DNA of 64,000 bases from Desulfatiglandales bacterium (GTDB lineage Bacteria > Desulfobacterota > DSM-4660 > Desulfatiglandales > Desulfatiglandaceae). The notes beneath the pieces are model-generated. The model was not told the origin of the DNA and did no database searches. It saw only the letters and a list, made by a program, of their open reading frames with translations. Location of the stretch: the NCBI GenBank assembly GCA_963662465.1, contig OY759599.1, positions 8,064,001 through 8,128,000 of the forward strand, in the 5' to 3' direction. Shown piece by piece: positions 26,074-58,196 of this stretch. The stretch's first letter is position 1. Each line of letters starts with the position of its first letter. A program made the position numbers and the translations under genes.

Positions 26074-26472
26074 GCCAGAAACCCCTTGTCGTTAATAACC
26101 GGGTACAGACCTCAACATAACAACCACCAAGAGTCAACGGCAGATTTGACCCCATGCCCTTTGATGCACATCCCAAGGTCACTGAAGGTGTAAAACCACG
26201 ACCCGGCATCGAGTGGCAGGTGACTTCAATATAAGGACGTTATAACCAACACCCAAATAACGGCAATAAGGAAGGCCTGACCCCATCATCACAACCCTCT
26301 AACGCATCCAAATCCGTGTAACCCAAAGGGCGGAGCTGTCTTCAAGATTTGACTGCAAAACAAAACCAAAAACCGTGTCATCCGTGAAATCCGCGCCAAA
26401 AAAACTAAAGAAACCACCAACGTCCCCTGCACCAATTTGTGTTTCCGCTTTTCACATATGAGGTAACCAGTC

Positions 26473-26697
26473 ATGAAAAGTCGCATCTTTGATAAACATT
26501 TTCCGACGATTCTTGGGGCAGGCAGTGTAATGGAAATCTGGCCAACGGAAAATTATGATCGTTATATGCCAGACCCTATTCCGGCAAATAGCCTCAAGGG
26601 ATATTGGATGAACGTTAACTCGTACGTGTGCAAAGGCATTGTGCAATATGAGTTGGATTGCCATACCAGACTAGCCGAAAGTCTAAATGATGAATAA
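26473..26697 (+). CDS. Small hypothetical protein
   Basis: GAGG RBS; lies between two CCCC-ending motifs. Confidence 0.5.
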   Translation: MKSRIFDKHFPTILGAGSVMEIWPTENYDRYMPDPIPANSLKGYWMNVNSYVCKGIVQYELDCHTRLAESLNDE

Positions 26698-26989
26698 TAA
26701 GCGAAGCCTGACCCCCTAATTTTATGGTCTCGTCCCCCTACCTTTCCGAATACGAACTGAAGAAGAGGGAGTTTAGGGATCGTACGAAAAGGTACGCTTC
26801 GGCTGTTAGTGCCAACGTTCCCCATTACTCCCCAAATGACAAAGAGAGCAAAATACCCTCAGTCCATGAGAAATGCAGTTGCGTAGCAACGTCCCCCATT
26901 CCACAGACCTCAGGAAATTGGGAACCGCTATAAAAATCTGTTGTCATTTTGGCGTCATTAATTTATCCTGTTTGTAAAGAAGGAGGTGT

Positions 26990-27280
26990 ATGATGACGCT
27001 GAACAAAACAGAAGAAAGAATTCCTGCCCGAATGCCCCATGAGGTTTACGAGCGAATTGTTGCGGCTGCCCATACTGTCGGAGCCACACTGAACCAGTTT
27101 CTTGTTCAGGCGGCTATTGACAAAGCGAATGAAATTCTGGAAAGGGAGCGCATTATTTCTCTTACTTCAAAAGACGCAGATACGCTTTTTCATCTGATCG
27201 ATAATCCGCCTGAACCGAATGATCATCTCAAAGCAATTATGAATCAGAGAGAGGCAGAGGCGCTTTTGTGCCGGAAATAG
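26990..27280 (+). CDS. DUF1778 family RHH antitoxin
   Basis: ERIPARMP..TLNQFLVQAA..NPPEPN; AGGAGG RBS. Confidence 0.88.
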   Translation: MMTLNKTEERIPARMPHEVYERIVAAAHTVGATLNQFLVQAAIDKANEILERERIISLTSKDADTLFHLIDNPPEPNDHLKAIMNQREAEALLCRK

Positions 27281-27771
27281 GTTCTCTTTTTCGCCATCAT
27301 GACCGGGCCGGATTTGATTGCGGAGTTCCAGCACTGAACGGTTTTCTCAAGTTCACGGCCAGGCAGCATGGTGATAAAGGGATTTCACGCACATTTGTTT
27401 TAACCGGGCCGGAAAACCCATCCATCATTCTGGGCTATTTTACACTGACACTCTGTGAAGTCAAAACAGAACATCTTCCAGCCTTATATGCCAGGAAATT
27501 TCCGAAACACGGGCTTCCAGCCGTTCGACTGGCCCGCCTGGCCGTTGACACGCGATTTCAGGGTCGTGGATATGGTGGACGTCTTCTTGCCGAAGCGATC
27601 CATCGGACGGTTTTGATTGCGGAACATGCAGGCGTGATTGGACTGTTTGTGGATGCGAAAGATGAAACTGCCTGTCTGTTTTATCAACGGTATGATTTTA
27701 AGTCTCTTCCGGACAATATCCGGAAATTGTTTCTGCCGATTGAAACCCTACGAAAAGGGTCCCTGCGATAA
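27268..27771 (+). CDS. GNAT acetyltransferase toxin (AtaT/TacT type)
   Basis: FDCG..LN.FL, LARLAVD..FQGRGYG, VDAKD, FY; overlaps the antitoxin. Confidence 0.9.
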   Translation: MPEIGSLFRHHDRAGFDCGVPALNGFLKFTARQHGDKGISRTFVLTGPENPSIILGYFTLTLCEVKTEHLPALYARKFPKHGLPAVRLARLAVDTRFQGRGYGGRLLAEAIHRTVLIAEHAGVIGLFVDAKDETACLFYQRYDFKSLPDNIRKLFLPIETLRKGSLR

Positions 27772-27789
27772 CTTCAAAAAGAAGGACCC

Positions 27790-27952
27790 GGAAGCCATCA
27801 GGAAGAACCCGGAAAAGTTCCCGGCAGATTTTATATTCGAGTTGAACGAAAAGGAACAGGATTTTTTAAGGTCGAAAATTTCGACCATAAAGACAGGAAG
27901 GGGCAAGCACGGAAAATTTGCCACAAAGGCTTTCGCGGAACAAGGCATTTGA
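27790..27952 (+). pseudogene. ORF6N (KilA-N-like) domain fragment
   Basis: AIRKNPEKFPADFIFEL...AFAEQGI, no start. Confidence 0.65.
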
Positions 27953-28261
27953 TATTCGACAAAGGAAAAACAGGCGCGGTATGGAAAACACGGCAAATAG
28001 AAATATGAGAGAAACGCAAGAACGCATGGGCGTCCCCAAGGGCCCCAGAATATGCTGGTCAGCTGGGTGAGATCCATGCCCTGGGTTTATAATGCGTGCC
28101 CTAATCAAGTCCTTAACCCCTAAATCTTAAATCCTAATAACCACAATAAATAAACCCTGACCCCCTAATAAAAAATCCGTGTAATCCGTGAAATCCGCGC
28201 CAAAAAAAGAAAAAACAGTCATCCCCAACCCCAATAACGACAATAAAGAAAGCCTGACCCC

Positions 28262-28480
28262 CTGATTGTTATGACCCATGTCGCAGGTTTTCCATTTTCC
28301 ATCGTGAACTTTCACAGTATTTATGCCGCGCCCAAAGATTATCTCCTGGAACTGGCCGGCAGACAGAACCTACGCATTCGGCTTCGGCCGCCATACCGGG
28401 AAAACCTGTCGCAGGCCTTTGGCAAGTATTTTATGCGTGTTGGGCTTCCTCTGGATATTCGAGCGTTTGCTCGCAGTTAG
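28262..28480 (+). pseudogene. 3' fragment of a conserved hypothetical gene
   Basis: LRPPYRENLSQAFGKYFMRVGLP; begins right after GCCTGACCCC. Confidence 0.5.
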
Positions 28481-28539
28481 ATAGGATGTCCCCATTATAA
28501 TACAAGCGTAAACTAGTGAAACAAGCAACGTCCCCCATT

Positions 28540-30185: not shown

Positions 30186-30689
30186 ATATACACCTCTAAA
30201 CTTATCTTATCTAAAACAGTAAAATATATATACTCATTACCCTTAGAATTCACTAAGTTGCTCAATCTTAATGTTTGAGTGATTTAGCCTTGTTCTTTCA
30301 GGGTGGGATCAAGACCAGGGCTGGGTGCTCTGGTCTGCTTTTTTTTAATATCATCTGGAATATCTACAGTTACTATACTTCCTATTTCAACAACATCATT
30401 ATACATTGGTGGGACAGAAATAAATTTTCTTGTGTTTCCATGTCTATCCTTTCCAGCTTTGATTGCCTTTGCCTATAGCGCTCAGATAAACTGGTACAGG
30501 TCTGCTCAGATAAATTGATACACCAATTTTTTTTGGATTTCCCTACCTCTAAAGATAAAAACCCTTTACAGAAAAAGATACCCCTCGTAATACCCTATAA
30601 TTTTGAGACCAATCAAAAAGAAAGAGGTATCACGAGGGTATGCCCAATTACATCAGTGACATAAGTGAGCAACTGGCTTTTTTATAATA

Positions 30690-31235
30690 GAAATCCAAGG
30701 CCATTTTCAATTTATTTCTGGCTGGTACCGGGATGGAGAGGTCCGTGGTCTTGTTGCTCGCTATTATTTTGTTGTTCGCTCGGTTCTCAAGGAGAAACCC
30801 CACCTTAAAAACTGCCTGACTCGTTGCAAGCACTGCGGCATCTTTTTTATCACCCATCCCCGGAATGCCGGCCGAAATAATCTTGGTTGCCCCTTTGGCT
30901 GCCGGGAAGCTCACCGCCGAAAAAAATCCACGGAGAGAAGTACGGAGTATTACCGTAATAAAGAAGGCAAGGAAAAGAAAAAGGCCTTAAACGAGAATCG
31001 CGGCAAAAAGGACAGCCCCCCGAAAGAAAAACAGGCGGAAACAATAGATGATGAACGTGAAGTGGTTGATGGCATTGTTCATCATGTTCGGATGGTTACG
31101 AGCTTGATTGAAGGTCGTAATGTAAGCCTGGATGAAATTTATCGCATGCTGAACAATCCGATGAGACAACACAGCATCGACTCTGCGGAAAAATCGTTTT
31201 ATGGTGGCCCTGGCTCTCGAAAAACTCCCCCGTGA
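30690..31235 (+). CDS. Cys-rich IS21 accessory reading frame; start not evident, possible frameshift in the T-run near 30680
   Basis: Open frame RCKHCGIFF..GCPFGCRE..ending TPP* just before the parB-like gene; absent from the ORF track. Confidence 0.6.
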   Translation, partial: EIQGHFQFISGWYRDGEVRGLVARYYFVVRSVLKEKPHLKNCLTRCKHCGIFFITHPRNAGRNNLGCPFGCREAHRRKKSTERSTEYYRNKEGKEKKKALNENRGKKDSPPKEKQAETIDDEREVVDGIVHHVRMVTSLIEGRNVSLDEIYRMLNNPMRQHSIDSAEKSFYGGPGSRKTPP

Positions 31236-31244
31236 GGAAGCAAA

Positions 31245-32141
31245 ATGGTCGATCAGATAGAAATTTCCAGTTTTGATTTACGATATGAGGATTGCCGTTT
31301 GAAATCAGCAGGGACGGAAAGAGCCCTTTTGACCTCTGTGTCGGAAAACGGTATCCGGGATCCGCTCCAAGGGGTGGACATTGAAGACCACAAAATTTTG
31401 CTCGATGGCTTCAAAAGATACCGGTGCGCAAAGAAATTGCATATCGAGATTGTGCCTTATCGGTCGATGGGGCGCGATGAGGCGAGTGGCATCATTGATC
31501 TGATCCGGTTATCAAACACAAAATCCCTTAACATTCTGGAGCAGGCCCGTTTAATCGATGAACTGAAGCGAGGTCACCAGATGAGTCATTCAGATATCGC
31601 CGGACTGCTTGAAAAAAGCAAATCCTGGGTCAGCATGCGTTGCGGCATTATGGGTGAGATGAGTGAAACCGTGAAGAAAGAAGTTTTTGCCGGAAAATTT
31701 CCGGTCTATTCATTTATGTATACTCTGCGGGGGTTCATACGTATGAACACCGTTAAAAAAAGTGAAATTGATGAATTTGTTCGGTCCGTGTCAGGCAAAA
31801 AGCTGAGCATACGGGATATTGATCTGTTGGCAAATGGCTATTTCAAGGGTTCGGAGGAATTCCGGGAACAAATCAGAACCGGCAATCTTTCCTGGGGACT
31901 TGAGCGATTAAAACATCATAGCGCAATAAGCGATGGTCTGAGTAAGCGGGAAAAAACCCATTTGAAAACCCTCGAAACCATCTTGAGATACATACAGCGA
32001 TTTATGGCGCAACAAAATGTTTCCTCCATGAGCAACGCATTTGCAGCCCAGGCCAACATGTTGTCGGGCGATATTATACAACTTTTTGATGCTTTTAAAA
32101 TAGCAATGGAAGCCTTTCATGATACCACCGAACAAACGTAA
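31245..32141 (+). CDS. ParB N-terminal domain protein
   Basis: SVSENGIRDPL, LLDGFKRY, HTH SHSDIAGLLEKSKSWVS. Confidence 0.82.
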   Translation: MVDQIEISSFDLRYEDCRLKSAGTERALLTSVSENGIRDPLQGVDIEDHKILLDGFKRYRCAKKLHIEIVPYRSMGRDEASGIIDLIRLSNTKSLNILEQARLIDELKRGHQMSHSDIAGLLEKSKSWVSMRCGIMGEMSETVKKEVFAGKFPVYSFMYTLRGFIRMNTVKKSEIDEFVRSVSGKKLSIRDIDLLANGYFKGSEEFREQIRTGNLSWGLERLKHHSAISDGLSKREKTHLKTLETILRYIQRFMAQQNVSSMSNAFAAQANMLSGDIIQLFDAFKIAMEAFHDTTEQT

Positions 32142-33603
32142 AGCGATTTTCCTGCTGCATCAGGAGGGCATGGGCGTACGGGAGATCGCTCGCAGCATAC
32201 ACATCAGTCCCACCACCGTAATGGAAATTATTGGCCAAAAGGGCGAGATGCCTGAAATCATACGTAAAGATAAAATCAAGATTGATTCGGCGCTTTTGGC
32301 AAATCTTTATGAAACATGTCAGGGCCGTGCGCAAAGAGTGTATGAAAAACTGACCGAAGAAGAAGGGATTGATGTTGCCTATTCAACCTTGACTCGAATG
32401 CTCCGGGAACAGGGTTTGAGCCATAAAAAATCCGACCGGTGTCAACAGGTTCCGGACGTGCCCGGAGCTGAGATGCAGCATGACACGTCGCCTTATCGTA
32501 TAAAACTGGGCAAAGAAATAGTGTTGGTCCAAGGGAGTCTTTTATATTTTCGGTATTGCAAAATTCGCTATCTGAAATTCTATCGTTCATTCAACCGGTT
32601 TCAAATGAAATGCTTTTTTCATGAAGCCCTTATGTACTGGCAATACGCGGCAGCGAACTGCATCATCGATAATACGAATCTGGCCCGTTTACGGGGCACC
32701 GGCAAAGATGTCGTCATCGTTCCTGAAATGGAACGGTTCGCCAAACAGTACAGTTTCAAATTTGTATGCCATGAAATAGGGCATGCAAACCGAAAAGCAG
32801 GCAATGAGCGGGGTTTTTATACAGTGGAAACCAACTTTTTTCCAGGCCGTTCTTTTGAAAACCTTGAAGACATGAATTACCAGTCTTACATATGGGCGAC
32901 TGATCGATCGGCCAACAGGCCCACCGGAAAGACGCGGCTGATCCCCTCCGTGGCTTTTGAATCTGAAAAACCATATCTCAGAAAAATGCCGCCATATGTC
33001 GAACCGCCCTACCTTGTTCATAAAAGAAAGATCGATCAGTACGGCTACGCCGCGGTTAATGGGAATTACTATTGGATTCCGGGAACGCGACGTCATGACG
33101 TCAAAGTCCTGCAATATGCCGATTATTTAGATATTTATCACCAAAGAAAATTCTTGGGACGCTATGTTTTGCCGCCTGACGGCGTCAGGAATGACGTCAT
33201 CACTCCCGAGGGGGTAACAAAACCTTCTCACAAACCCTCGCAACGAAAAAAGCCAACGGCGCGGGAAGAAAACATCCTGCGATCAGATAAGGCCATTAAT
33301 GATTATTTGAATTTCGCTTTACCCAAAAGTGGTAAGGCCAGGCATCACTTCATTCGAGCGCTTTTCAGCCTATATCGAAAAACCGCTCCTACGGTTTTTA
33401 TAAAAACGCTACAACGAGCCTTGAAATATCGCATTAAGGACATCAAAGTCATTGAAAACATAGTTGTTTTGATTTTAAGAGACGCTAGTATCGAATTGGG
33501 GACACCTGAAATTGAACCGGATTTCACGAAAAGGGATGCCTATATCGAGGGCTGTTTTACCGATGAGCCGGATCTTTCCATTTATGAGGATGAAAATGAA
33601 TGA
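32119..33603 (+). CDS. istA: IS21 transposase
   Basis: N-terminal HTH, PGAEMQHD, IDN, KAGNER, NGNYYWIP. Confidence 0.9.
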   Translation: MIPPNKRKAIFLLHQEGMGVREIARSIHISPTTVMEIIGQKGEMPEIIRKDKIKIDSALLANLYETCQGRAQRVYEKLTEEEGIDVAYSTLTRMLREQGLSHKKSDRCQQVPDVPGAEMQHDTSPYRIKLGKEIVLVQGSLLYFRYCKIRYLKFYRSFNRFQMKCFFHEALMYWQYAAANCIIDNTNLARLRGTGKDVVIVPEMERFAKQYSFKFVCHEIGHANRKAGNERGFYTVETNFFPGRSFENLEDMNYQSYIWATDRSANRPTGKTRLIPSVAFESEKPYLRKMPPYVEPPYLVHKRKIDQYGYAAVNGNYYWIPGTRRHDVKVLQYADYLDIYHQRKFLGRYVLPPDGVRNDVITPEGVTKPSHKPSQRKKPTAREENILRSDKAINDYLNFALPKSGKARHHFIRALFSLYRKTAPTVFIKTLQRALKYRIKDIKVIENIVVLILRDASIELGTPEIEPDFTKRDAYIEGCFTDEPDLSIYEDENE

Positions 33604-34342
33604 TGAGTTGATAAAGATGCTGAAATACCTTCGGCTCAATGTGTTGATTGAAAACTGGGATCGGTATCTCAAAATCGGCGCAAAAGGGGATTATTCCCAT
33701 GCGCGGCTGTTGGAATATGTTGTTTCCGAGCAATATCAAATTAAAAAGGAAAACGCCCGCAAGATGAGAGTCAAACGAGCCGGTATTCCAGAAAAATTTG
33801 TTTTGGAGACCTTTCCTTTCAAGCGCCAGCTTAATCTCAATAAAAAGAGAATCGAATCCATATACGACGGTTTTGATTACATGACCAAATCCCGCAATAT
33901 CATCTTCATTGGACCGACGGGCACGGGAAAAAGCGGGCTGGCCACGGCGTTTCTGATCCACGCTATCAACCAGGGCTACAACGGGCTGTTTATCACTTTC
34001 CCTGAACTGGTGGAACGTCTTTACCAATCGATGGCGGATAATACTCAGGCAAAGACCATCAAGAAGCTGTTATCCTATGATTGTTTGCTGATTGATGAGC
34101 TTGGTTATATTCAAATAGAATCGGTTCAAGTGGGTCTATTTTTTAATCTAATGCAAAAAAGACATAAAAACAAAACGACCCTCATTACATCCAACCTCGG
34201 ATTCGAAAAATGGAATTCCTTTCTTAAGAACAAGCATCTCACAGCCGCCCTGATCGATCGACTGACTGAAAGCAGTCATATCATCAATATGAAAAACTGC
34301 ATAAGCTTAAGGCAGAGGCTTGATGAGGTTCCGGAGACATGA
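33596..34342 (+). CDS. istB: IS21 helper ATPase
   Basis: GPTGTGKS, LLIDELGY, ITSN, ALIDRL. Confidence 0.93.
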   Translation: MNDELIKMLKYLRLNVLIENWDRYLKIGAKGDYSHARLLEYVVSEQYQIKKENARKMRVKRAGIPEKFVLETFPFKRQLNLNKKRIESIYDGFDYMTKSRNIIFIGPTGTGKSGLATAFLIHAINQGYNGLFITFPELVERLYQSMADNTQAKTIKKLLSYDCLLIDELGYIQIESVQVGLFFNLMQKRHKNKTTLITSNLGFEKWNSFLKNKHLTAALIDRLTESSHIINMKNCISLRQRLDEVPET

Positions 34343-34833
34343 CAAAACTTTTTTCGGCAAAGGAGCTTTACAGCGTGAGAAATGACATCCCGATTTCCGG
34401 TCTGATTGAAAACGTGCTGAATATACCGGCTCGCACAACTGAAGGGGTTTTCAGATTTCTTTGTCCTGTATGCGGGGAATTTAACACGGCGGTTAATCCA
34501 AAAACCAATCTGGCCAGATGTTTCTACTGTAAAAAAAACTTCAACACCATTGATCTGGTGATGATTGTCAAAAAGGCAAATTTTGTAGAAGCCGTCCACT
34601 TTCTGAAAGCACATAAAAATAGATGTCAAAGTCATTGTGTTTCCAAAAAATCGGAAGATCACACTCAATCTCCCCAGCATATTGCCGACATTGTAAAATC
34701 AATCATGCCCGCCAAACCGGATTCTGACCATCCAGAATCCATTGAAAGCATATCGAAGCGGGTTTTATGCATCGAGAAGATGCTTGAGCAAATGACCCAT
34801 CAAATGGAAATTATAGTAAAAACAATCACATAA
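34339..34833 (+). CDS. CHC2/primase-type zinc-finger protein
   Basis: FLCPVCGE..ARCFYC..NTIDLV. Confidence 0.75.
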   Translation: MTKLFSAKELYSVRNDIPISGLIENVLNIPARTTEGVFRFLCPVCGEFNTAVNPKTNLARCFYCKKNFNTIDLVMIVKKANFVEAVHFLKAHKNRCQSHCVSKKSEDHTQSPQHIADIVKSIMPAKPDSDHPESIESISKRVLCIEKMLEQMTHQMEIIVKTIT

Positions 34834-34914
34834 CTCATTTCCTGGAATTTCATGCGAAAATAGGGTGTTCTGTTTTGATAGTCGTGTAACGCTAATCAAA
34901 TTTTGGAGGTGGAA

Positions 34915-35112
34915 ATGCGAGGCGGAAAGCGTGCTGGAGCCGGTCGAAAAAAGAAGCCGGATCACTTGAGACGTGAGTTGGTGACAATTCGACTACCGAG
35001 GTGGATGATTACACAGCTTAAAAACAATGGTGAAATTGGCTATTTGATTGAGGATCTACTGGCAAAAAAGGGTTCCCTGAATCCACCTGATGATTATGAT
35101 TTCAATAGCTGA
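34915..35112 (+). CDS. Small DNA-binding protein
   Basis: RGGKRAGAGRK then RHH-like VTIRLP; GGAGG RBS. Confidence 0.65.
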   Translation: MRGGKRAGAGRKKKPDHLRRELVTIRLPRWMITQLKNNGEIGYLIEDLLAKKGSLNPPDDYDFNS

Positions 35113-35539
35113 AATCGACGGACCCATTCATCTCTTTTCTACGATTTGATTGAAAACGCCTTCCAACCGACATCTGAAATAGCCCCAGGTTGTATCCAAC
35201 ACTGAAGTCCCCCACAAGTCAGCGTGTTTGTCCATAGCTTAGCACGGCTTTTCGGATCGAACCTGTCGCAAATATCCAGGTCAAATTTCGATACGGCCTG
35301 CTGGTTTGTAGTCGTTTGCTCAGCCGTTCCGGCATCAATCTCCTTCTCCAACTTAAGCCATTTTTCCGCTGCGGGGTAGCAGCAAAGGCGGGGTTCTATT
35401 CAATTCTTGGGGCGGGGTGAGCATAGCTGCAGGGTAGTCGTGCGAACGAACGTATCAGTTTTCATGAGCAGAAGTGTATCAGTTTATCTGAGCGCCATAG
35501 CCTTTGCTCTAAACCTCATACACACACGATAAACACAGC

Positions 35540-35556
35540 ATATATTTAAACTTTCC
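35540..35556 (-). promoter_or_regulatory. Archaeal-type BRE-TATA promoter GGAAAGTTTAAATA
   Basis: About 25 nt upstream of the ATG of the IS-split gene, no RBS. Confidence 0.65.
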
Positions 35557-35839
35557 TAACTCCTTTTAAGTGGTTAATAAACTCTACGCCATTTTACGTA
35601 GAGTGTTTTTGCAACATGTTATAAAAAACTATCAAAAAGTATGATTTTTGCCGGAAAATGGACTCTACGGAATTATCACGTAGAGTCCTATTTTGGCCTA
35701 TTTGTTGCCTCTGAAAAATAACTCTACGGTCAAAACACGTAGAGTGGTTTTTATGCATTTACCGTGTTTAACTTAACTACTACTCTACGTATTTTCTACT
35801 AGTAGTTAGTCTACGTTACATAGATATATATTATATAAT

Positions 35840-37366
35840 ACTTGAGTTTTCGAAAAAAAGTAATGGACACGGTAGGAACACTGTGAGAAAATACCTTGGT
35901 GTAGTGTTGTCATTTGCTATAATACCAGGGGAAACTCATGCAAATTCCGTGTGCCAGACGGCTTCCATTTCTTGTTTCTGGGTTGGCATTTCTACAACCG
36001 GCCTTGACGAACGCCCAATTCTACAATCTAACGCTGGTTGCAACAGCTTTGGTTTTGGGCGCAAAATTCAGTCTTTCAGCAATCAATCGCATGTGGCTTG
36101 AAGAAAAATGCGTGAGCACCTTATCGTATTTCTTCTCAGATGCTAAATTCTGCACAGCTGAAATGCAACATCTTTATGCTTTACAAATCATGCATTTATA
36201 CAAACTTCAAAGTGGCTATTACTGTATCGATGACACCATGAAACACCACACAAATTTCTGTAAATGGATCCACGGTGTCTTTGTTTTATTCGATCATGCG
36301 CTCAAGACAAACCTCAAAGCGACCTGTATCGTAGTCCTTTATTACAGCAATGGTGGAATAATCAAATTTCCCATTGCTCATCGAATCTATTACCAGGATA
36401 GCAATAAGATGCCTTGGCAGAAAGGGAAAAAGCATATTTGCAAACCGAAATACGAATTGGCAATTGATATGCTTCAATGGGCTATCGACAGGGGTTTTCC
36501 CAGAGGCATCGTCCTTGCTGACTCCTGGTTCGGGAGCGGTCCATTTGTAAAAGGCCTTAAAGGCTTGAAGTTGAGTTATGTTATTGAAATAAAGTCAACT
36601 TTAACCGTAAGAATCCCATGCAAAGAGCCTAAACTCACCCCCAAGGGTAAGATATCTAAGAAGCAGCATGACCTTATCAAATTGCCCAATGTTTTTCAGT
36701 CTACATCATCCTTCAGCACATGCGGTTTTGCCGCCAATATGGGCATTGGCAAAAAGGAAAAAGTCCTGTATCATACCAAAGTTATCACGGGGAACCTGAA
36801 CTCTATTGCCGGAAAACATAGGATTGTTCAAAGTGTTGACCCAACCAAACAAACCACCAAATATCTTCTCACCAATGAACTCACCTGGGAGGCCACCAAG
36901 ATTATTTCCGCTTATAGCAACAGATGGGTTATCGAGGAATTTTTCAGGAATGCGAAGCAGTTAACCGATATGGAGGGAGCCACTATTAGGAGCGAGCAAG
37001 GCGTGACATTAGCGTTATGCCTGGTGTCCTGGATTGACTCCCTCCTCCATCTGGAAAACTATAAGCAAAGCACTGCTGGAAAATTGCCAAAGGAGCCATT
37101 AACGGTTCCTTCGATAGTCCGTTTGGCTCAATACGATAATCTTGAAACTTTTCTGGATCGACTTCAAAAGGAAGATGGGCTTCTCAAAAAGTGGTGTGAT
37201 GTTGAACAAAAAGGTTTGGTCAGAAAGCGGAAGAAATCTAAAGAGTTGATAAAGCTACAAGATTTCTCTGAAGACCGTTCCCGGAAACAATTATCAAAGG
37301 CTGCATAAAGCAAATATTGCGCCAAAAGATCAAATTGTCAAAGAACTATTTTTCGAAAACTCAAGT
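35840..37366 (+). mobile_element. IS701-like (IS4 superfamily) insertion sequence, target duplication ATAAT
   Basis: IRs ACTTGAGTTTTCGAAAAA / TTTTTCGAAAACTCAAGT; ATAAT on both flanks. Confidence 0.88.
35938..37308 (+). CDS. DDE transposase, IS701-like
   Basis: CIDDT, LADSWFG, RWVIEEFFRNAKQ. Confidence 0.88.
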   Translation: MQIPCARRLPFLVSGLAFLQPALTNAQFYNLTLVATALVLGAKFSLSAINRMWLEEKCVSTLSYFFSDAKFCTAEMQHLYALQIMHLYKLQSGYYCIDDTMKHHTNFCKWIHGVFVLFDHALKTNLKATCIVVLYYSNGGIIKFPIAHRIYYQDSNKMPWQKGKKHICKPKYELAIDMLQWAIDRGFPRGIVLADSWFGSGPFVKGLKGLKLSYVIEIKSTLTVRIPCKEPKLTPKGKISKKQHDLIKLPNVFQSTSSFSTCGFAANMGIGKKEKVLYHTKVITGNLNSIAGKHRIVQSVDPTKQTTKYLLTNELTWEATKIISAYSNRWVIEEFFRNAKQLTDMEGATIRSEQGVTLALCLVSWIDSLLHLENYKQSTAGKLPKEPLTVPSIVRLAQYDNLETFLDRLQKEDGLLKKWCDVEQKGLVRKRKKSKELIKLQDFSEDRSRKQLSKAA

Positions 37367-37474
37367 ATAATATACTCTACGGAATTATCGCGTAGAGTTA
37401 AATCCTTATTTTTTGATGAAAATGTCAAAATCCACCAAAAAGTATATATACTCAAGTATGTATGAATAAAAAAT

Positions 37475-42957: not shown

Positions 42958-43023
42958 CAAGATTAAAAACAAAAACAATCCTGCAAAATCCTGTAAATCC
43001 TGTCTAAAAAAAGAGAGGAAAAA

Positions 43024-44115: not shown

Positions 44116-44292
44116 TGGTCATTAACTCAAAACCCATAACCCAACACTCAAAACTGATTTTCCACCCATGCATCCATATCTCAGCGGTGAAGACCAAAAG
44201 CGAATCGCGGTCAGTATTGGAGATGGGCGATGTAACTGTTTAACTGGGGTTGGCAACGTCTCCCATTATACAAGATTTGACAACGATCCTTA

Positions 44293-44357: not shown

Positions 44358-44600
44358 ATGGACGTTACGGCGACAGAGTTGAAAAACAGATTGGGGAGAT
44401 ACCTGGATACGGCCGAGAGGGTTCCTGTCATTGTCAAAAAGTCAGGAAGGAAAAAGTCAGTCATCATATCCCATAGAATGTATGAGAGATTCCTTGAAAT
44501 GGAGGACACATACTGGGCTCAGAAGGCTCGCGAAGCTGAAGAGGGGGGCTACTTGGGTGAGATTGAAACCAAACGCCTTTTGAGCGAAGAAGATGTATAA
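44358..44600 (+). CDS. Phd/YefM antitoxin
   Basis: VTATELKNRLGRYLD..PVIVKKSGR. Confidence 0.88.
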   Translation: MDVTATELKNRLGRYLDTAERVPVIVKKSGRKKSVIISHRMYERFLEMEDTYWAQKAREAEEGGYLGEIETKRLLSEEDV

Positions 44601-44868
44601 GCTGGATATCACCAAGGCTGCCGGAAAATTTGTCAAAAAATTGGATGCAAAACAATACCGTCAAGTATTATCAAAAATTCTGGAACTGAGAGAAGAGGCC
44701 GATCCCCATGACTCAAAGCAACTCATCGGCAGCCCTGAGTACAGACGAGTGGATATAGGTGAGTATCGTGTCATCTATAGAGTTGAAAAAGATACTGTTA
44801 AAATCGCTGTCGTTGGCAAACGAAACGATGACGATGTTTACAGAAGATTTAAAAGAAAAGACAAATGA
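44593..44868 (+). CDS. RelE/ParE toxin
   Basis: YRRVDIGEYRVIY..VGKR. Confidence 0.9.
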   Translation: MYKLDITKAAGKFVKKLDAKQYRQVLSKILELREEADPHDSKQLIGSPEYRRVDIGEYRVIYRVEKDTVKIAVVGKRNDDDVYRRFKRKDK

Positions 44869-45113
44869 GTGTAATAAGGGAAATTAGAGAAGTTCTTGAT
44901 GGGTCGATTTCTATCGATATGCCGGCAAGCCTGCTTCATCGGAAAGTGGAGGTGATTGTTATTCCTTTGGATGAAATCTCCAGTGATGATGATTTTAATG
45001 GGGAGGATACCTGGCCTTACGGATTTTTTGAGAAAACGGTCGGTTGCATGGCTGATGATCCTATTCGAAGGCCAGATCAAGGGGAGTACGAACAGCGGGA
45101 GCTTCTTGCATGA
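44865..45113 (+). CDS. Putative antitoxin of the downstream VapC
   Basis: VEVIVIP..RPDQGEYEQRE; ATGA overlap with vapC. Confidence 0.7.
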   Translation: MSVIREIREVLDGSISIDMPASLLHRKVEVIVIPLDEISSDDDFNGEDTWPYGFFEKTVGCMADDPIRRPDQGEYEQRELLA

Positions 45114-45523
45114 GATACCTTCTCGACACGAATGTGTGTATTTCGTATTTGAATAACCCTCAGTCACCCGTTCGTTTTCATCTCGAGCGCTCGGAACCAA
45201 GCTCCATATTTGTATGTTCTGTCGTGAAGGCCGAGCTTTATTTCGGCGTAATGAATAGTCAGTGGTCAGAGAAGAATCTGGAAAAGCTGGAAGTTTTTCT
45301 GAAGCCGCTTGGCTCTTTTCCCTTTGATGACTTGGCAGCTAAACATTATGGGGAAATACGAGCGAAGTTATCAAAAGCAGGCAAAGTGATAGGACCTCAC
45401 GATATTCAAATCGCCGCTATTGGGCTCTGCCGGGAGGCGATTCTTGTAACACATAATACACGAGAGTTTTCGCGTGTGGAAGGCCTGGTTGTTGAAGACT
45501 GGGAATTGGAAAAACGCAGTTGA
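45110..45523 (+). CDS. vapC: VapC/PIN-domain toxin
   Basis: YLLDTN, IGPHDIQIAA, LVTHNTREF. Confidence 0.92.
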   Translation: MRYLLDTNVCISYLNNPQSPVRFHLERSEPSSIFVCSVVKAELYFGVMNSQWSEKNLEKLEVFLKPLGSFPFDDLAAKHYGEIRAKLSKAGKVIGPHDIQIAAIGLCREAILVTHNTREFSRVEGLVVEDWELEKRS

Positions 45524-45539
45524 GTACCAACCCCCATTA

Positions 45540-45735
45540 CACTCGCCGCTTGGATGGATGAAGCCGTGAAGCACAGGAACAAACATCGTGAGGTCAAGTG
45601 GACGGAAAGCATCGCGGCCTGCCCAGTTAAATCTGGTTGTTCTATTTAACCGGGGTGGGAAGCAAGGAGTTCGTGGAAAAGATCAAAGAAAAGCTGAAGG
45701 CCTTATTTCTGAGTCGTAAGGTGGAAGGGGAAGAA
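45540..45735 (+). pseudogene. C-terminal fragment of a REP-associated (IS200-like HUH) transposase, interrupted by a REP hairpin
   Basis: REVKWTESIA|VGSKEFVEKIKEKL after removing about 45618-45654; family recalled, not searched. Confidence 0.55.
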
Positions 45736-45937
45736 TGCCGATATCTCACAGAGGAAGACCAAAAGAAAATTGCGGCTGCTATCGGGGATAGACCATAGCC
45801 GAAAGCCTTAACCCATAGCCTGTTTTTCGTGCCCATAGCCTATCGCCCCATAGCCTAATACCTTTTACACCTTGGTTTTCTTCGTTACCTTCTTTAAAAA
45901 TATGTAAAGATCTAAATATCCCTTTTGTGAGGTAGAG

Positions 45938-48072: not shown

Positions 48073-48513
48073 GGAACTATAAATGTAAGAGTTGGCAACT
48101 CAAAACTCAAAACCCAAAACTCAAAACTCAAAACCCAAAACCATCTTTGCTCTCTTCGTTACCTTCTGTAAAAAGCCCTTAAAAAAAATCCTGTAAAATC
48201 CTGTTAATCCTGTCAAAAAAAGAGTTATGGAATTATGAACAATGTCCCCCATTCCCCTCTATCTCACAGAGGATGACCAAAAGAAAATTGCGGCTGCTAT
48301 CGGGGATAGACCATAGCCTAATACCTATCGCCCATAGGGGGAGGAATATGAGGGAAACCAGTGGCATTATGAACTGGGAGAGAAAGGGGCTGCTTACAGT
48401 GCCAATTTTGCCCCCAAAAATGTACTTCTAAGCCCAGAAAACGCATATATTTTGGACTTAAATATTGAATAATCAATAGGATAGTTTGGTCAGACCCCAG
48501 ACTGCAGCATGAC

Positions 48514-50240: not shown

Positions 50241-50369
50241 AAAATAAACCCGCTCACCCCTTTACACTATCACGGTAATCGGAAAATCGAAAGAAACGCA
50301 TGAATGCATGGGCGTCCCTCTGCCCAAAAACTCAAAACTCAAAACCCAAAACCCAAACCCAACCCCCAA

Positions 50370-51096: not shown

Positions 51097-51105
51097 GCAT
51101 TAAGA

Positions 51106-51142: not shown

Positions 51143-51226
51143 ACGTGAGGTCCGACCCCAAGCTCCTAAATGATATAGAAGTATAGAATTGCAAACCGAC
51201 GTTCCCCATTGTACATTGGAGAGGAT

Positions 51227-52063: not shown

Positions 52064-52186
52064 GGAACTATAAGCTGTATTTTTTTCCTTAACTCAAAAC
52101 CCAAAACCCAAAACCTGGGCGTCCCACTGCCCATAATGAGAATTGCTGCTTGACATCCGCCGCTCCTTGGAATATATGTTCGCACC

Positions 52187-52570: not shown

Positions 52571-52761
52571 ACGGAAGACTTAAAACGTAAAACGTAAAAC
52601 CTTTTCCCCACTTTCGTAACTCAAGGGGCGGAGCTGTCTGAAGCGGCAAGCCGCGGATTTAAGTTTTACGTTTTAGGGGGATAACCTTACAAACCTGCCA
52701 ACGTCCCATTACGTCCCCCTAATTAAAGGGCGTTATGCTATTAGGATGAAGGAGGTTGCAG

Positions 52762-53351: not shown

Positions 53352-53626
53352 CCAAAAAGAGCTGATCTGTATCCAAAGGAAGCAAGAAGGGAATGAGATA
53401 ATCTGCACTCACGCCACAAAAGCCCTTTTGATTCCCATGCTGCACGATGCTAGGAAAAAAGGTGTAGGGTATAGGGTTTAAGGTATAAGGCGAACCCCGC
53501 ACCTTGTTCCCTACACCTTAAACCTTAAACCCTGAACCCTGCGTAAAGAAAGCCTGACCCCAGCAATAGAAAAAAAAAGATAAATCCTTGAAATCCTGTT
53601 AATCCTGTCAAAAAAAAAGGCTGAAA

Positions 53627-54528: not shown

Positions 54529-54530
54529 AA

Positions 54531-54803: not shown

Positions 54804-54818
54804 AGGCGCCTTCATAAA

Positions 54819-55283: not shown

Positions 55284-55338
55284 GCAATTCTTTTCGCAAA
55301 AGAAATCCTGTAAAATCCTGTTAATCCTGTCTAAAAAA

Positions 55339-55737
55339 ATGGAACAGGAAGACCTAACCCACAAAATCATCGGCTGTGCCTACAAAGTATATAACACCCT
55401 CGGCTTCGGTTTCCTTGAAAGCATCTATCACAAAGCCATGCTGATCGAACTTGCCGAAGTCGGGATGGTTGCCGAATCAGAAAAACCCCTGAAAGTCACT
55501 TACAGAGACAAAATAATTGGTGAATTTTCAATAGACATATTCGTTGAAAATGAAATCATCGTGGAACTCAAATCCGTTGAGCATCTGGTGAAAGCCCATG
55601 AGGTCCAGGTCGTCAACTACCTCACAGCCTCAAAAAAGGAAATCGGTCTCCTCATCAACTTCGGACCCACCGGAGTCAAAGTTAAAAGAAAATACAGAAA
55701 AAGTCTTGCACAGTATTTACAGGCTCAACCAGATTAA
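55339..55737 (+). CDS. GxxExxY protein (PD-(D/E)xK nuclease-like)
   Basis: LGFGFLESIY, DIFVENEIIVELKSV, QVVNYL, GLLINFG. Confidence 0.92.
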   Translation: MEQEDLTHKIIGCAYKVYNTLGFGFLESIYHKAMLIELAEVGMVAESEKPLKVTYRDKIIGEFSIDIFVENEIIVELKSVEHLVKAHEVQVVNYLTASKKEIGLLINFGPTGVKVKRKYRKSLAQYLQAQPD

Positions 55738-55944
55738 AACCAAAAAAAATCCTGTAAAATCCTGTTAATCCTGTCAAAAACAAATGCACTTCATAGATTT
55801 ATCAGCCCAACAACAAAACACTTAGACAGGATTTACAGAATCAACAAGATTAAAAACAAAAAAAATCCTGCAAAATCCTGTTAATCCTGTCTAAAATGTT
55901 TTTCACAAAATACAACAGAGCCAAGAAAACCTTTTCCCTTCGTT

Positions 55945-56025
55945 ACCTTTACAGTCCCGAGCAATCAGGAATACTCCGTACCGCAGGTCAAGATGTTACT
56001 GAAAGAAGTTGAAGTGGGAATAGGG
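55945..56025 (+). pseudogene. HicA-like toxin 3' fragment
   Basis: TVPSNQEYSVPQVKMLLKEVE. Confidence 0.5.
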
Positions 56026-56029
56026 GGCA

Positions 56030-57265
56030 AAACCTTTGCGAACACATCGAGGAGGGCCGGATCATACAGTCTGTGAACTGGTACTTGCTTCCTTTTCTGG
56101 AATGGCTTGCACAACACTGGGATCCCCTTCTGCATGAACAGAGACTTCCGATTAAGCACAGCGATGCCGGCAATACCGCATGGGCTTCTTTTCAGAGCCA
56201 CTTCCAGCCCCCCATCGGTTACGATCACGATCAGGCCTCAGAATGGGATACGAAGTGGGATGCCTGGATGACTCGGCACAGTCTCCTAATGGCCAGGGCC
56301 GGAGGACTTTTTCCAGATCTTTTCATTCGGCGGTATCGCGATCAAATAGAACTATCATGGGGAGAGATCTTGCACCCCGGCGCGCCCCGGGGGTTCCGTT
56401 TTTGCGCTCCTGCCGGGTTCGTACGGCTACCGCCTTCCACGGTTTCTCAACCCCTTTTCCAATTGTTGCTGGGATCCGCCCAATTCTTAATGGGGCGATG
56501 CGTCGATTCACAGAGGATAAAAACCCTCACCCAGGCAATTCAGAATATTCCGCGGGCTGATCAAACACCGCGTCTGGCCTGGCTGGCGGGTTTGGACCTG
56601 CAAATCGGGAAAGCCATAGGCCGGTGGAATCGATTTGCGGAGAAAGTCTCCGGTACGCTGGGCGATGCGGGCAAGCGCCTTTTTTCAGAGAGCCAATGTC
56701 TAGAAAATATCGTTATAACAGGTTCTTGCGATGCAGCCATGATGTTCGGTTCTCTTGCGCCGACCATAGAGGAAGAAGATGTGTTGGCGATTGCTCGAAA
56801 GATGATCGAAGCTGCGGAGCAGGAACAGCATGACGAATTATTGGAGCAAATGACAAGGCCAATTCAGTTGGATGACGATCCATCGCCCCCGTGGGAACAA
56901 GGCTATAATCTGGCCATGCCCTTATGCGAGGACATGGCCGTCAGCCAAACCGGCAGTTCTGTTGATGTGGCAAACGTGCTAAAGGGATTGGGTATTCATT
57001 TTGGGGAGATTGCCTTGACAGACAGCGAGATCCGGGCAATTAGCCTTGCAGGCCCTCATCATCACCCGACCATCCTGCTTAATATGAATAACCCTACAAA
57101 TCAGTACGATTCAGGCCGTCGATTCACCTTTGCCCATGAACTGTGTCATCTCCTTTATGACCGAACATACGGTATGAAACTGGCGATGGCGTCAGGCCCG
57201 TGGGCGCCCAGGGATATCGAAAGACGCGCCAATGCCTTTGCGGCCATGTTTATTATGCCCACCCA
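56030..57265 (+). pseudogene. ImmA/IrrE-family metallopeptidase gene, apparently truncated at both ends
   Basis: RRFTFAHELCH, ERRANAFAAMFIMP, then unrelated sequence. Confidence 0.75.
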
Positions 57266-57740
57266 TTTTAACTTTCATGAAATCATTGCAAACTCCTGAG
57301 TTCTCAGACTTAATCCATGATCGAGAAGGGAATAAGCAGCTTCAATTTTAGACGGTTGCTCGGCGTTGAGGGAAGGGTGGTTTTGGGTTTTGGGTTTTGG
57401 GTTTTGAGTTTTGGGTTTTAGGTTTTGGGTTTTGGGTTTTGAGTTTTGGGTTTTGGGTTTTGAGTTTTGGGTTTTGGGTTTTTCAGTCAATGAACTTCTT
57501 GTTTTTTGTGACAGAAAACCTGGAAATAAGGTACTAGGCTTTTTCCGAGACTACGCTCGGAAAAAGTGGCTTCTTGGAAGCCCTCAAGGATACAACTAGC
57601 TGTATTTTTTTCCTTAACTCAAAACCCAAAACCCAAAACCCAAAACCCAACACCCAACACCATCTTTGCTCTCTTCCTTACCTTCTGTAAAAAGCCCTAA
57701 AAAAAATCCTGTAAAATCCTGTAAATCCTGTCTAAAAAAA

Positions 57741-58036
57741 GGTCCCGGTTTTTCAGGAACCAGGACAAACTGAAGGAAACCGCCGTTCAGGATGACCTGA
57801 ATAAGACCCTGTCCGGAGCCGATGCCATTATTTTGGCGGTGCAACACCGGGCCTATCTTGAACTGGACCCGGCTTCTGTGGTTGAAATGACCGGCAACCC
57901 TGCCGCCATTGTGGACTGTTTCGGCATTCTGAACGATGCGGCCATCAAGCGCTACTTTGAACTGGGCTGTGAGGTCAAAGGTCTCGGCCGGGGACATGTG
58001 AAACGAATCAAGGATGCGGTCAGAGATTCTGCGTAG
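57741..58036 (+). pseudogene. 3' end copy of the dehydrogenase, more diverged allele
   Basis: ELDPASVVEMTGNPAAIVDCFG vs NLDPDGVVEMIGGPAAVVDCFG. Confidence 0.9.
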
Positions 58037-58196
58037 GAAAGCATAACAAAAATAAATCCTAAAAATCCTGTTAATCCTGTCTGAAAAAGAGTTATGGAAT
58101 TATGGAACAACGCCCCCCATTCCTACGGGGTGCCAAAAAAACGAAAGGTTCACGAGTAAAGAACCAAGCACTTAGAAAGATGGAGGACTGTGTGTA

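What the first reader, a model, noticed from the sequence alone, without database searches (positions are those of the whole stretch)
26140..58125. Candidate DNA-capture array: cargo joined at co-oriented half-sites ending in CCCC
Seen: about 12 copies of CAACGTCCCC(C)ATT, about 9 of (AATAArGAAA)GCCTGACCCC or GGTCmGACCCC, and 3 of TGGGCGTCCC (near 28027, 50309, 52116). All are on the + strand and I saw no inverted partners. They sit where unrelated DNA begins or ends: the GNAT TA pair, a headless gene (28262), the MCM truncation (28540), the MNT gene (40430), the double TA cassette (44268-45527), Bro-N (48499), the small TM genes (51211-51534), antitoxin-vapC (52711) and hicBA (58122). Several cargoes are cut mid-gene, unlike integron cassettes. 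Recalled: such motifs resemble single arms of the inverted repeats flanking REP-associated HUH (RAYT) transposases. Inference: an HUH enzyme acting in trans joins foreign DNA next to these half-sites and builds a directional, integron-like array without an integrase.
Basis: partly seen in the sequence, partly recalled or inferred. Interest (0 to 1): 0.88.

Follow-up and report, generated by a model that had tools for sequence, protein, structure and literature searches.

The report
Y1-transposase sites bounding gene cassettes
The repeated CCCC-ending motifs are the recognition ends of a little-studied single-strand-DNA (HUH/Y1) transposase family, and here and in related bacteria they line up in one direction behind small toxin-antitoxin gene units, so the locus looks like an integron-style cassette array run by a different kind of enzyme, though in this window it is an old, partly decayed copy.

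Summary
About 21 co-oriented sites of roughly 35 bp lie on the + strand between 26.2 and 58.2 kb. The core is CAACGTCCCCCATTAC or a GCCTGACCCC / TGGGCGTCCCC variant. They sit behind small gene units, mostly toxin-antitoxin pairs.

They are end repeats of TIRYT enzymes (RAYT-like Y1/HUH transposases with a DnaA-type tail; Di Nocera 2013, Quentin 2018). Elsewhere in this genome TIRYT genes carry inverted copies of such ends.

One TIRYT subfamily instead sits inside one-directional arrays, flanked by direct sites, in several genera. One related genome has 121 sites on one strand in 122 kb. There, the DNA left and right of a site assorts independently. A 1,166-bp block is duplicated exactly from site to site.

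Each site belongs to the unit on its left, like an attC.

Against it for this window:
- There is no TIRYT gene here.
- Large duplications and mid-gene cuts do not end at sites.
- Recent differences between the two island copies are IS insertions and mid-gene breaks.
- No excision product was seen.

This scan noted similar TIRYT repeat arrays in other genomes. Most follow-ups judged them ordinary.

The parts
26275..26284 (+). site, GCCTGACCCC type (arm AATAACGGCAATAAGGAAG)
26418..26428 (+). site CAACGTCCCCT
26706..26716 (+). site, GCCTGACCCCC type; a further CGTCCCCC core lies at 26731-26739
26813..26826 (+). site CAACGTTCCCCATT
26887..26900 (+). site CAACGTCCCCCATT (arm GCAGTTGCGTAG)
26990..27771 (+). 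TacA antitoxin plus GNAT toxin pair (cargo)
   Evidence: Pfam
28027..28037 (+). site TGGGCGTCCCC (arm AAACGCAAGAACGCA)
28155..28165 (+). site CCCTGACCCCC
28252..28262 (+). site GCCTGACCCCC, directly before a 69-aa ORF without family
28487..28493 (+). site core TGTCCCC with arm GCAGTTAGATAGGA
28526..28539 (+). site CAACGTCCCCCATT. Low-GC foreign DNA starts right after it, with a truncated MCM gene (28431-29288, -)
30473..37369 (.). IS21-type element and a DDE insertion sequence inside the array. The second island copy has an IS200 here instead.
40420..40430 (+). site GCCTGACCCCC, 21 nt before a nucleotidyltransferase (MNT) gene at 40451-40756
41305..44115 (+). sugar-nucleotide genes (GFO oxidoreductase-acetyltransferase fusion, DegT aminotransferase). 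Their fragments recur through 44-61 kb.
44254..44267 (+). site CAACGTCTCCCATT before the double TA unit
44358..45523 (+). Phd/ParE pair fused to an antitoxin/PIN pair. Bases 44863-45540 are 96% identical to a site-bounded cassette in locus L032.
45517..45545 (+). degenerate site ACGCAGTTGAGTACCAACCCCCATTAC. Homology with L032 stops right after it.
45544..45798 (+). remnant of the 3' part of a Y1 (RAYT-like, 256-aa type) gene fused to a DegT 3' end fragment
48240..48253 (+). site CAATGTCCCCCATT (arm GAGTTATGGAATTATGAA)
50309..50321 (+). site TGGGCGTCCCTC
51197..51210 (+). site CGACGTTCCCCATT before small membrane-protein ORFs
52116..52125 (+). site TGGGCGTCCC before an HTH_24 gene (52187-52570)
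52699..52720 (+). double site CAACGTCCCATTACGTCCCCC before an antitoxin/PIN unit (52756-53351)
53552..53561 (+). site GCCTGACCCC
58108..58121 (+). site CAACGCCCCCCATT before a HicB-like pair (58197-58585)
17765..19510 (.). tmRNA gene (+) and phage-type integrase (-): left edge of the genomic island that carries the array

Best explanation
The motifs are the roughly 35-bp, non-palindromic recognition ends of TIRYT enzymes. These are Y1/HUH single-strand-DNA transposases with a DnaA-type helix-turn-helix tail. Each site has two loose 8-nt sub-repeats, a core (C/G)AACGTCCCCC or CTGACCCC, and then ATTAC. In one TIRYT subfamily of the Desulfobacteria the sites are direct, co-oriented repeats that close small gene units, mostly toxin-antitoxin operons.

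I read the array as an integron-like cassette system. The enzyme would cut one strand 3-5 nt behind the C-run and rejoin it to another co-oriented site, so that a unit plus its own 3' site is excised, moved or duplicated.

Shown: site anatomy, strand polarity, link to TIRYT genes, independent assortment of the two flanks, and site-to-site block duplication in a related genome. Inferred: that TIRYT is the catalyst, the cut position, and a single-strand circular intermediate.

The window's array lies in a tmRNA-integrated island among fragments of a sugar-nucleotide operon. It has no TIRYT gene of its own, is partly degenerate, and was later scrambled by IS elements and ordinary duplications.
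For: Enzyme link. Long Y1 proteins with Y1_Tnp plus Bac_DnaA_C domains are flanked by inverted repeats ending GGGGACGTTCG...CGAACGTCCCC or AATGGGGTCAAG...CTTGACCCCATT. The stop codon of the 360-aa TIRYT gene at G000 7013342-7014424 lies in ...GGAATAGTGG|CAACGTCCCCCATA, and that arm type recurs at solo sites. Literature: TIRYT/TIRtron with the GGGGWSAS end motif (PMC3733652, section 16 read) and subclass 2.1 with a DnaA_C tail (PMC6006769, passages read).

Site anatomy. Across 145 distinct sites information falls to zero left of -23 and right of +13. There is no hairpin, but an 8-nt direct periodicity (0.478 against 0.293 in shuffles).

Polarity. Per-arm CGTCCCC counts are 7:0, 0:7, 9:0, 0:10, 39:1 and 0:4.

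Conservation. The exact 14-mer occurs in 47 of 209 genomes of the class. The reversed control gives single hits in 7 of 209.

Arrays elsewhere. L032 has 21 sites, all +, in 15.7 kb with TA pairs between them. G139 has 121 sites on one strand against 2 on the other in 122 kb, also with TA cargo.

Gene flanks. TIRYT orthologs of 56-95% identity are flanked by direct sites. Those of 44-50% identity have classical inverted ends.

Flank assortment. G000: left-only 31, right-only 3, both 37 pairs among 150 sites. G139: left-only 98, right-only 23, both 3 among 121 sites, with divergence 3-5 nt after the C-run. G139 duplication ends within 15 nt of a site: 29% of left ends and 39% of right ends against 4.2% at random (70 HSPs). 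A 1,166-bp block at 99.2% identity begins at the core of sites with different arms and ends right after CCCCCATTA.

Shared cassettes. Window 44863-45540 matches L032 7932-8612 at 96%, and both end at the same site type. G000 7082896-7083525 matches L033 1516-2145 at 88%, with its own 3' site kept and different upstream sites.

Co-occurrence (my hand count). 14 of 21 genomes with a close ortholog hold the 14-mer, against 33 of 188 without. 6 of the 8 genomes with 5 or more copies have the ortholog.
Against: - In G000 itself, ends of duplications of at least 150 bp and 90% identity are not enriched at sites: 3 of 96 left, 2 of 96 right, 2.4% at random. In the window part the counts are 0 of 26 and 0 of 26.
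- The two nearly identical island copies differ by an IS insertion and by breaks inside a PIN gene and a dehydrogenase gene, not at sites.
- Only 2 of 14 cross-genome homology blocks lie near sites at both ends in both genomes.
- A 1.4-kb duplicate in G000 starts 5 and 17 nt after sites but ends 180 nt past one.
- There is no TIRYT gene in the window or in islands A and B.
- All biochemically studied Y1 enzymes use hairpins (recalled), and these sites have none.
- Recombination within the shared 14-16-bp core by host enzymes would leave the same junctions.
- No excised circle or empty site was seen; the public runs were available only as contigs.
- Earlier follow-ups of this scan on other genomes found no capture evidence.
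Confidence: 0.55

Rival explanations
1. The sites are inert relics: solo ends of TIRtron-type elements that inserted repeatedly in one orientation into a variable island. The patchwork arises from host homologous or illegitimate recombination, IS activity and deletions. No enzyme moves cassettes.
For: In G000 large duplications and the A/B island differences do not end at sites. Many TIRYT gene pieces lie in the arrays (window 45544-45798). The left edges of the shared arms are ragged at 32, 43 and 54 nt. Earlier follow-ups on other genomes reached this reading.
Against: It does not explain 121:2 polarity over 122 kb. It does not explain an invariant 14-mer across 30 of 89 genera. It does not explain one site behind almost every operon, 98+23 one-sided pairs against 3 two-sided in G139, or a dispersed block duplication bounded by sites at both ends. 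A shared core of 14-16 bp is a poor substrate for RecA-type recombination (recalled).
Confidence: 0.3
2. The sites are REP-like short mobile or functional units of about 35-55 nt. They insert downstream of genes and act as RNA or DNA signals (transcript stability, termination, protein binding), without moving the neighbouring genes.
For: REPs and TIR repeat families sit mostly downstream of coding regions between co-directional genes (PMC3733652, abstract and section 16). The sites lie 0-140 nt after ORF ends. Tandem core duplications with a 12-14-nt period occur.
Against: There is no fixed unit length or left boundary and no hairpin. I found no filled-versus-empty pair differing only by a unit in the duplicates I inspected. 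The arrays are confined to a few loci rather than spread through intergenic space.
Confidence: 0.1
3. The array is built by another recombinase, such as the island's tyrosine integrase, an integron integrase or Xer, and the TIRYT link is coincidental.
For: A phage-type integrase lies 7 kb upstream (18206-19510, -). The genome has 58 PF00589 matches.
Against: That integrase sits beside the tmRNA gene and a 27-nt direct repeat of its 3' end, the usual island attachment. The sites lack attC-type inverted repeats. The G139 array has no integrase among the ORFs of 120 aa or more checked at its edges. The arm of one site type is the 3' end of the TIRYT gene itself.
Confidence: 0.03

Closest known systems
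TIRtrons / TIRYT (Di Nocera, De Gregorio, Rocco 2013, PMC3733652), equal to TnpA-REP subclass 2.1 (Quentin et al. 2018, PMC6006769)
   Same: A Y1/HUH core plus a Bac_DnaA_C-type tail. End repeats start with GGGG, and GGGGTCAGGC fits GGGGWSAS. The ends have no hairpins. Moderately abundant solo, paired or grouped end repeats are described.
   Different: TIRtrons are described as a gene between inverted ends. Here the closest subfamily sits between direct sites inside one-directional arrays of up to 121 sites that close gene units. Neither paper, in the parts I read, describes cargo or arrays of this kind.
Integrons, especially sedentary chromosomal integrons with TA cassettes
   Same: One-directional arrays. 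Each small, often TA-type unit carries its own recombination site at its 3' end. The two flanks of a site assort independently. Arrays exceed 100 units. Site clusters occur without the enzyme gene nearby, as with CALINs.
   Different: No IntI tyrosine recombinase, no attI-intI platform seen, and no attC hairpin with R/L boxes. The candidate enzyme is an HUH endonuclease.
IS200/IS605 family and its non-coding derivatives (PATEs)
   Same: Y1 enzyme, strand-specific ends that are not inverted repeats, and insertion 3' of a short specific sequence (recalled), which could produce head-to-tail arrays.
   Different: Those ends are sub-terminal hairpins with guide sequences. Here there is no hairpin, a distinct left end was not found, and the enzyme has an extra DNA-binding tail.
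REP / BIME / REPIN with RAYT
   Same: A related enzyme family, with a single-copy enzyme gene and many short cognate repeats.
   Different: REPs are GTAG-tagged palindromes spread genome-wide, often in inverted pairs. These sites are non-palindromic, locus-bound and strictly co-oriented.

Membership tests
TIRYT / TnpA-REP subclass 2.1 | Y1_Tnp (HUH) domain with HUH motif and catalytic tyrosine | tested here: met
   PF01797 E=3.5e-13 for the 360-aa protein. NCBIfam REP_Tyr_transpos scores 71.9 bits, below its cut-off of 80. HFH and NRYKS are seen in the translation; reading them as the catalytic motifs is recalled.
TIRYT / TnpA-REP subclass 2.1 | C-terminal Bac_DnaA_C or HTH extension | tested here: met
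   PF08299 E=3.2e-10 at residues 276-339
TIRYT / TnpA-REP subclass 2.1 | gene flanked by terminal INVERTED repeats carrying GGGGWSAS | tested here: not met
   Met for the 334-aa and 326-aa genes of this genome and for L034-L036. Not met for the array-type gene (G000 7013342-7014424) or its orthologs L012, L032 and L033, which have direct sites on both sides.
Integron | IntI tyrosine recombinase next to the array | tested here: not met
   No PF00589 gene lies at the array. The nearest is the tmRNA-island integrase. None was found at the G139 array edges.
Integron | attC sites: imperfect inverted repeats that fold as single strands | tested here: not met
   Mean folding energy is -2.0 (top strand) and -2.6 (bottom strand) against -2.2 +/- 1.6 for shuffles, over 77 sites. 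No inverted arms appear at the sites.
Integron | cassettes with the site at their 3' end, exchanged at the site | tested here: met
   Left-only against right-only flank homology is 31:3 in G000 and 98:23 in G139. A site-to-site block duplication was found. This is a likeness in behaviour, not membership.
REP/RAYT | GTAG-tagged palindromic repeats, genome-wide and abundant | tested here: not met
   No palindrome. Copies are confined to three islands.
IS200/IS605 | sub-terminal hairpins at distinct left and right ends; insertion 3' of a short target | tested here: inconclusive
   No hairpin at the right end. No separate left end was found: only ATTAC is conserved after the C-run. Head-to-tail arrangement fits target-specific insertion.

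The most novel reading that the evidence does not exclude
A second, independent invention of the integron principle. A Y1/HUH single-strand endonuclease (array-type TIRYT) would recombine short, non-palindromic, co-oriented sites. It would so assemble, shuffle and spread gene cassettes, mostly toxin-antitoxin and other accessory genes, in chromosomal arrays of more than 100 units across many genera of sulfate-reducing Desulfobacteria.
Probability: 0.5. Interest if true: 0.9.

Novelty: new variant of a known kind. Interest (0 to 1): 0.74.

Why it matters
Integrons are the only well-established system that stockpiles gene cassettes in ordered arrays, and they depend on a tyrosine recombinase and folded attC sites. 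An HUH-enzyme system doing the same with short linear sites would be a new route of gene capture. It would explain why toxin-antitoxin genes pile up in some genomes, and it would give a function to the unexplored TIRYT branch of RAYT-like enzymes.

The question is now directly testable, because three things are defined:
- the site: about 35 bp, with the junction 3-5 nt behind the C-run;
- the candidate enzyme: G000 7013342-7014424 and its orthologs;
- a young array: G139:C1, 1.277-1.400 Mb.

HUH enzymes that join DNA at short defined sequences are also useful tools.

Tried and rejected
- **Classical attC, Tn3-type inverted repeats, IS ends, sigma-54 and sigma-70 promoter readings.** I considered these by eye and dropped them. 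The IS21 and DDE element ends do not match the motif, and the promoter spacings do not fit.
- **DnaA-box reading of the arm.** The tetranucleotides vary (GTGG, AGTG, CCTT), so the arm is not a conserved DnaA box.
- **Ungapped flank comparison of 55 copies.** It gave only 1 left-only and 1 right-only pair. The gapped version superseded it.
- **Profile HMM scan of the genome.** It gave 41 hits at E<1, again confined to the islands, and added nothing new.
- **Breakpoint enrichment in G000.** Negative, and reported as evidence against.
- **A/B island comparison for cassette gain or loss.** Only IS and mid-gene differences appeared.
- **Public runs.** All were held as contigs only. The pieces break at the repeats, so the joints are uninformative. 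One contig of run X12 covers 44863-45531 with unlike flanks, which fits the cassette edge, but I could not read it.
- **Protein Data Bank search with the 360-aa TIRYT.** No match at E<=0.001.
- **Viral-contig scan for the 16-mer.** One match, not followed up.
- **Literature.** Only two papers hold the terms TIRYT or TIRtron. Searches for HUH or Y1 enzymes with integron-like cassette arrays listed nothing on point (listings and abstracts only). The library lacks most subscription journals.

Full report
**Observation.**
- The three motifs are present where stated and all lie on the + strand.
- CAACGTCCCC with up to one mismatch gives 13 matches (12 on +) against 4.1 expected, and 0 of 100 shuffles reach 13. 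Four of the + matches lie inside sugar-enzyme genes and are probably chance.
- GCCTGACCCC has 5 exact copies, all on +.
- TGGGCGTCCC has 3 exact + copies. Its count is not above chance alone, but 20-48 nt to the left of the copies are shared.
- With a loose core pattern, window 26001-58200 holds 25 + and 5 - matches. Window 1-26000 holds 5 + and 8 -.

**Wider setting.**
- The window is G000:C1:8064001-8128000 of an 8.16-Mb single contig.
- A tmRNA gene (17765-18118) is followed by a phage-type integrase on the other strand.
- From the last 27 nt of the tmRNA gene onward, 12 kb recur at 99.99% identity at 29146-41170 of the contig. Two islands therefore sit in tandem at the tmRNA gene, and the array lies inside the first.
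- Between 41 and 61 kb lie genes for a UDP-sugar pathway: an oxidoreductase-acetyltransferase fusion, a DegT aminotransferase and a UDP-sugar dehydrogenase. Many partial copies of their 3' ends are interleaved with toxin-antitoxin pairs, a Bro-N gene, HTH genes and others.
- An IS21-type element and a DDE insertion sequence interrupt 30.5-37.4 kb.

**Genome-wide distribution.**
- Copies of the 14-mer CAACGTCCCCCATT with 0-1 mismatch number 30 on + and 7 on -. Nearly all lie in three islands, and a profile scan gives the same picture.
- Each island has an arm with sites on + followed by an arm with sites on -. CGTCCCC counts per arm are 7:0, 0:7, 9:0, 0:10, 39:1 and 0:4, against 0.06 per kb on either strand elsewhere.
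- Cumulative GC skew puts the origin near 5.74 Mb and the terminus near 1.78 Mb. All three islands therefore lie on one replichore.
- On that replichore the C-rich strand of the + arms is the lagging-strand template (inference). The - arms do not fit this, so polarity follows the local gene direction rather than replication.

**What the motif is.**
- The genome has 30 matches to the Y1 transposase family.
- The long ones (326-360 aa) combine Y1_Tnp with a DnaA-type C-terminal helix-turn-helix.
- Four 334-aa genes lie between GGGGACGTTCGTCAGATTATAAGTT and AACTTATAAACTGACGAACGTCCCC. Two 326-aa genes lie between AATGGGGTCAAGTCCGCTCTTGACC and its inverse.
- These are TIRtrons, encoding TIRYT enzymes, as described by Di Nocera et al. 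2013. They report an end motif GGGGWSAS and 'moderately abundant families of TIRs' (PMC3733652; abstract, section 16 and passages read). Quentin et al. 2018 place them in TnpA-REP subclass 2.1 with a Bac_DnaA_C tail (PMC6006769; passages read).
- Only these two papers in the held library use the terms TIRYT or TIRtron.

**Site anatomy.**
- Over 145 distinct sites from this genome and four loci, information is confined to about -22 to +12 around GTCCCC. The consensus is A-rich arm, CAACGTCCCCC, then ATTAC.
- The arm shows an 8-nt direct periodicity (0.478 against 0.293). The sites do not fold: -2.0 and -2.6 against -2.2 +/- 1.6 for shuffles.
- Several arm families exist.
- One arm, AATAGTGGAATAGTGG, is the 3' end of the 360-aa TIRYT gene at 7013342-7014424. 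Its stop codon lies in that arm.

**A different architecture.**
- That 360-aa gene has direct sites on both sides, not inverted ones.
- The same holds for its orthologs of 56-95% identity in G007 (L012), L031, L032 and strain NaphS2 (L033). More distant TIRYT genes (44-50% identity; L034-L037) have classical inverted ends hugging the gene and no arrays.
- L032 has 21 sites, all +, in 15.7 kb. Nearly every interval holds a TA pair: PIN, HicAB, ParDE, TumE, MNT/HEPN.
- The exact 14-mer occurs in 47 of 209 genomes of the class (30 of 89 genera), always co-oriented within a contig where several are listed. The reversed control gives single hits in 7 genomes.
- G139 has 121 sites on one strand and 2 on the other between 1,277,470 and 1,399,460.
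- The G139 cargo is TA pairs, HTH_24 genes, an HNH nuclease, and NeuB and DegT fragments. There is one near-complete TIRYT gene and 28 TIRYT pieces, all on the site strand.
- The G139 array abuts a polysaccharide operon. No integrase was found among the ORFs of 120 aa or more at its edges.
- By my hand count, 14 of the 21 genomes with a close ortholog (E<=1e-90) hold the 14-mer, against 33 of the 188 without. Six of the 8 genomes with 5 or more copies have the ortholog. Related genomes are not independent and many assemblies are fragmented.

**Do the sites mark exchanges?**
- Among 150 sites of G000, 31 pairs share only the left flank, 3 share only the right flank and 37 share both; the last are segmental duplicates. 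A second method on 57 strict sites gives 16, 2 and 2.
- In G139 (121 sites) the counts are 98, 23 and 3. Identity stops mostly 3-5 nt after the C-run, and shared downstream units start 0-10 nt after it.
- The site therefore belongs to the unit on its left, and the junction lies just behind CCCCCATT(AC).
- In G139, of 70 internal duplications (at least 150 bp, at least 90% identity), 29% of left ends and 39% of right ends lie within 15 nt of a site, against 4.2% at random.
- One 1,166-bp block of three units, 99.2% identical, occurs twice 6.35 kb apart with different neighbours. Homology begins at the core of sites with different arms and ends right after ...GCAACGTCCCCCATTA.
- Across genomes, window 44863-45540 (antitoxin plus PIN) is 96% identical to L032 7932-8612. 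Both end in the same site type, degenerate in the window (ACGCAGTTGAGTACCAACCCCCATTAC), and diverge right after it.
- G000 7082896-7083525 matches L033 1516-2145 at 88%. Each follows a site of a different family and keeps its own 3' site.

**Evidence against, for this window.**
- In G000, ends of 48 duplications (at least 150 bp) lie near sites no more often than chance: 3 of 96 and 2 of 96 against 2.4%. The ends inside the window give 0 of 26 and 0 of 26.
- The two island copies differ by an ordinary IS insertion with its own inverted repeats, by a break inside the PIN gene and by a break inside the dehydrogenase gene.
- Only 2 of 14 cross-genome blocks are near sites at both ends.
- A 1.4-kb duplicate in island C starts 5 and 17 nt after sites but runs 180 nt past the next one.
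- The antitoxin/PIN unit at 52.7 kb shares its start with a copy in island C only from the ribosome-binding region, 28 nt after the site.
- The window has no TIRYT gene, only the remnant of a 256-aa Y1 gene at 45544-45798 fused to a DegT fragment.
- The 'cargo cut mid-gene' is therefore better explained by later IS activity, duplication and deletion than by capture at half-sites. One exception may be the truncated MCM gene, which starts exactly after the site at 28526-28539.

**Mechanism proposed.**
- By analogy with Y1 enzymes of IS200/IS605 (established biochemistry, recalled), TIRYT would recognise the arm and core on one strand and cut a few nucleotides 3' of the C-run. It would hold the 5' end on its tyrosine and join the 3' OH of another co-oriented site.
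- Two direct sites would then yield a single-strand circle (unit plus one site) and a deletion. The reverse reaction would place a unit behind a resident site.
- This explains co-orientation, one site per unit at its 3' end, independent assortment of the flanks, TIRYT genes behaving as units themselves, and tandem core duplications with a 12-14-nt period.
- None of these steps has been shown biochemically.
- Recombination within the shared 14-16-bp core by host enzymes would leave identical junctions. That is the main rival.

**Comparison and novelty.**
- The enzyme and the end motif belong to a known, barely studied family.
- The direct-repeat array with cargo is not described in the two papers I read in part. 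My searches for HUH or Y1 enzymes with integron-like cassette arrays listed nothing relevant (listings and abstracts only).
- This scan has noted co-oriented TIRYT repeats in at least six other genomes. Most follow-ups called them ordinary, and one found units coming and going at the repeats. I did not test those notes.
- My reading rests on the G139 and cross-genome tests above.

**Verdict.** The window holds a decayed example of what is probably an HUH-driven, integron-like cassette array.

Noticed in passing
window 42971-60132 (14 copies, e.g. 48181-48214, 50976-50997): AATCCTGT repeated three times at a 10-bp period lies directly before the ribosome-binding sites of many genes. Six copies have an inverted partner about 30 nt upstream, forming stems of about 21 bp between genes. 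The element is mostly confined to the same islands (35 + and 4 - exact copies genome-wide for the two main variants). It may be a shared operator, a terminator or another repeat family.
   Followed up: partly
window 40154-40314 and 57365-57496: Tandem heptamers AAAACCC / GGGTTTT in both orientations, forming a 46-nt inverted pair around 57421-57661.
   Followed up: no
window 18092-30116 and G000 29146-41170: Two genomic islands sit in tandem at the tmRNA gene. Each starts with the last 27 nt of the tmRNA gene and an integrase, and their first 12 kb are 99.99% identical.
   Followed up: partly
window 32119-34833: An IS21-type element: a 494-aa HTH protein and IstB, followed by an ORF with a DnaG-type CHC2 zinc ribbon.
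   Followed up: no
window 46975-47057: A run of 7-nt repeats (GACCTCC / GTCCTCC) lies inside the 585-aa UDP-sugar dehydrogenase ORF. Similar runs occur at 59829-59862 and in the minus arms of the islands.
   Followed up: no
G000 8147984-8149128 and 86282-88975 (outside the window): A tandem repeat with a 105-bp period, of different copy number in the two islands.
   Followed up: no
G139 array (L045-L053), e.g. array positions 2536/2550 and 17971/17985: Eight tandem duplications of the site core with a 12-14-nt period (CGTCCCCCATTAC-xCGTCCCC-ATTAC). They may be scars of enzyme action.
   Followed up: partly
G000 7044470-7052670 and 280858-286740: Groups of several adjacent tyrosine-recombinase genes, of the recombinase-in-trio kind, one of them inside island C.
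   Followed up: no
window 28431-29288 (-): An MCM-type helicase gene (OB domain) is truncated exactly at the site at 28526-28539. It lies in a 30-38% GC segment.
   Followed up: partly
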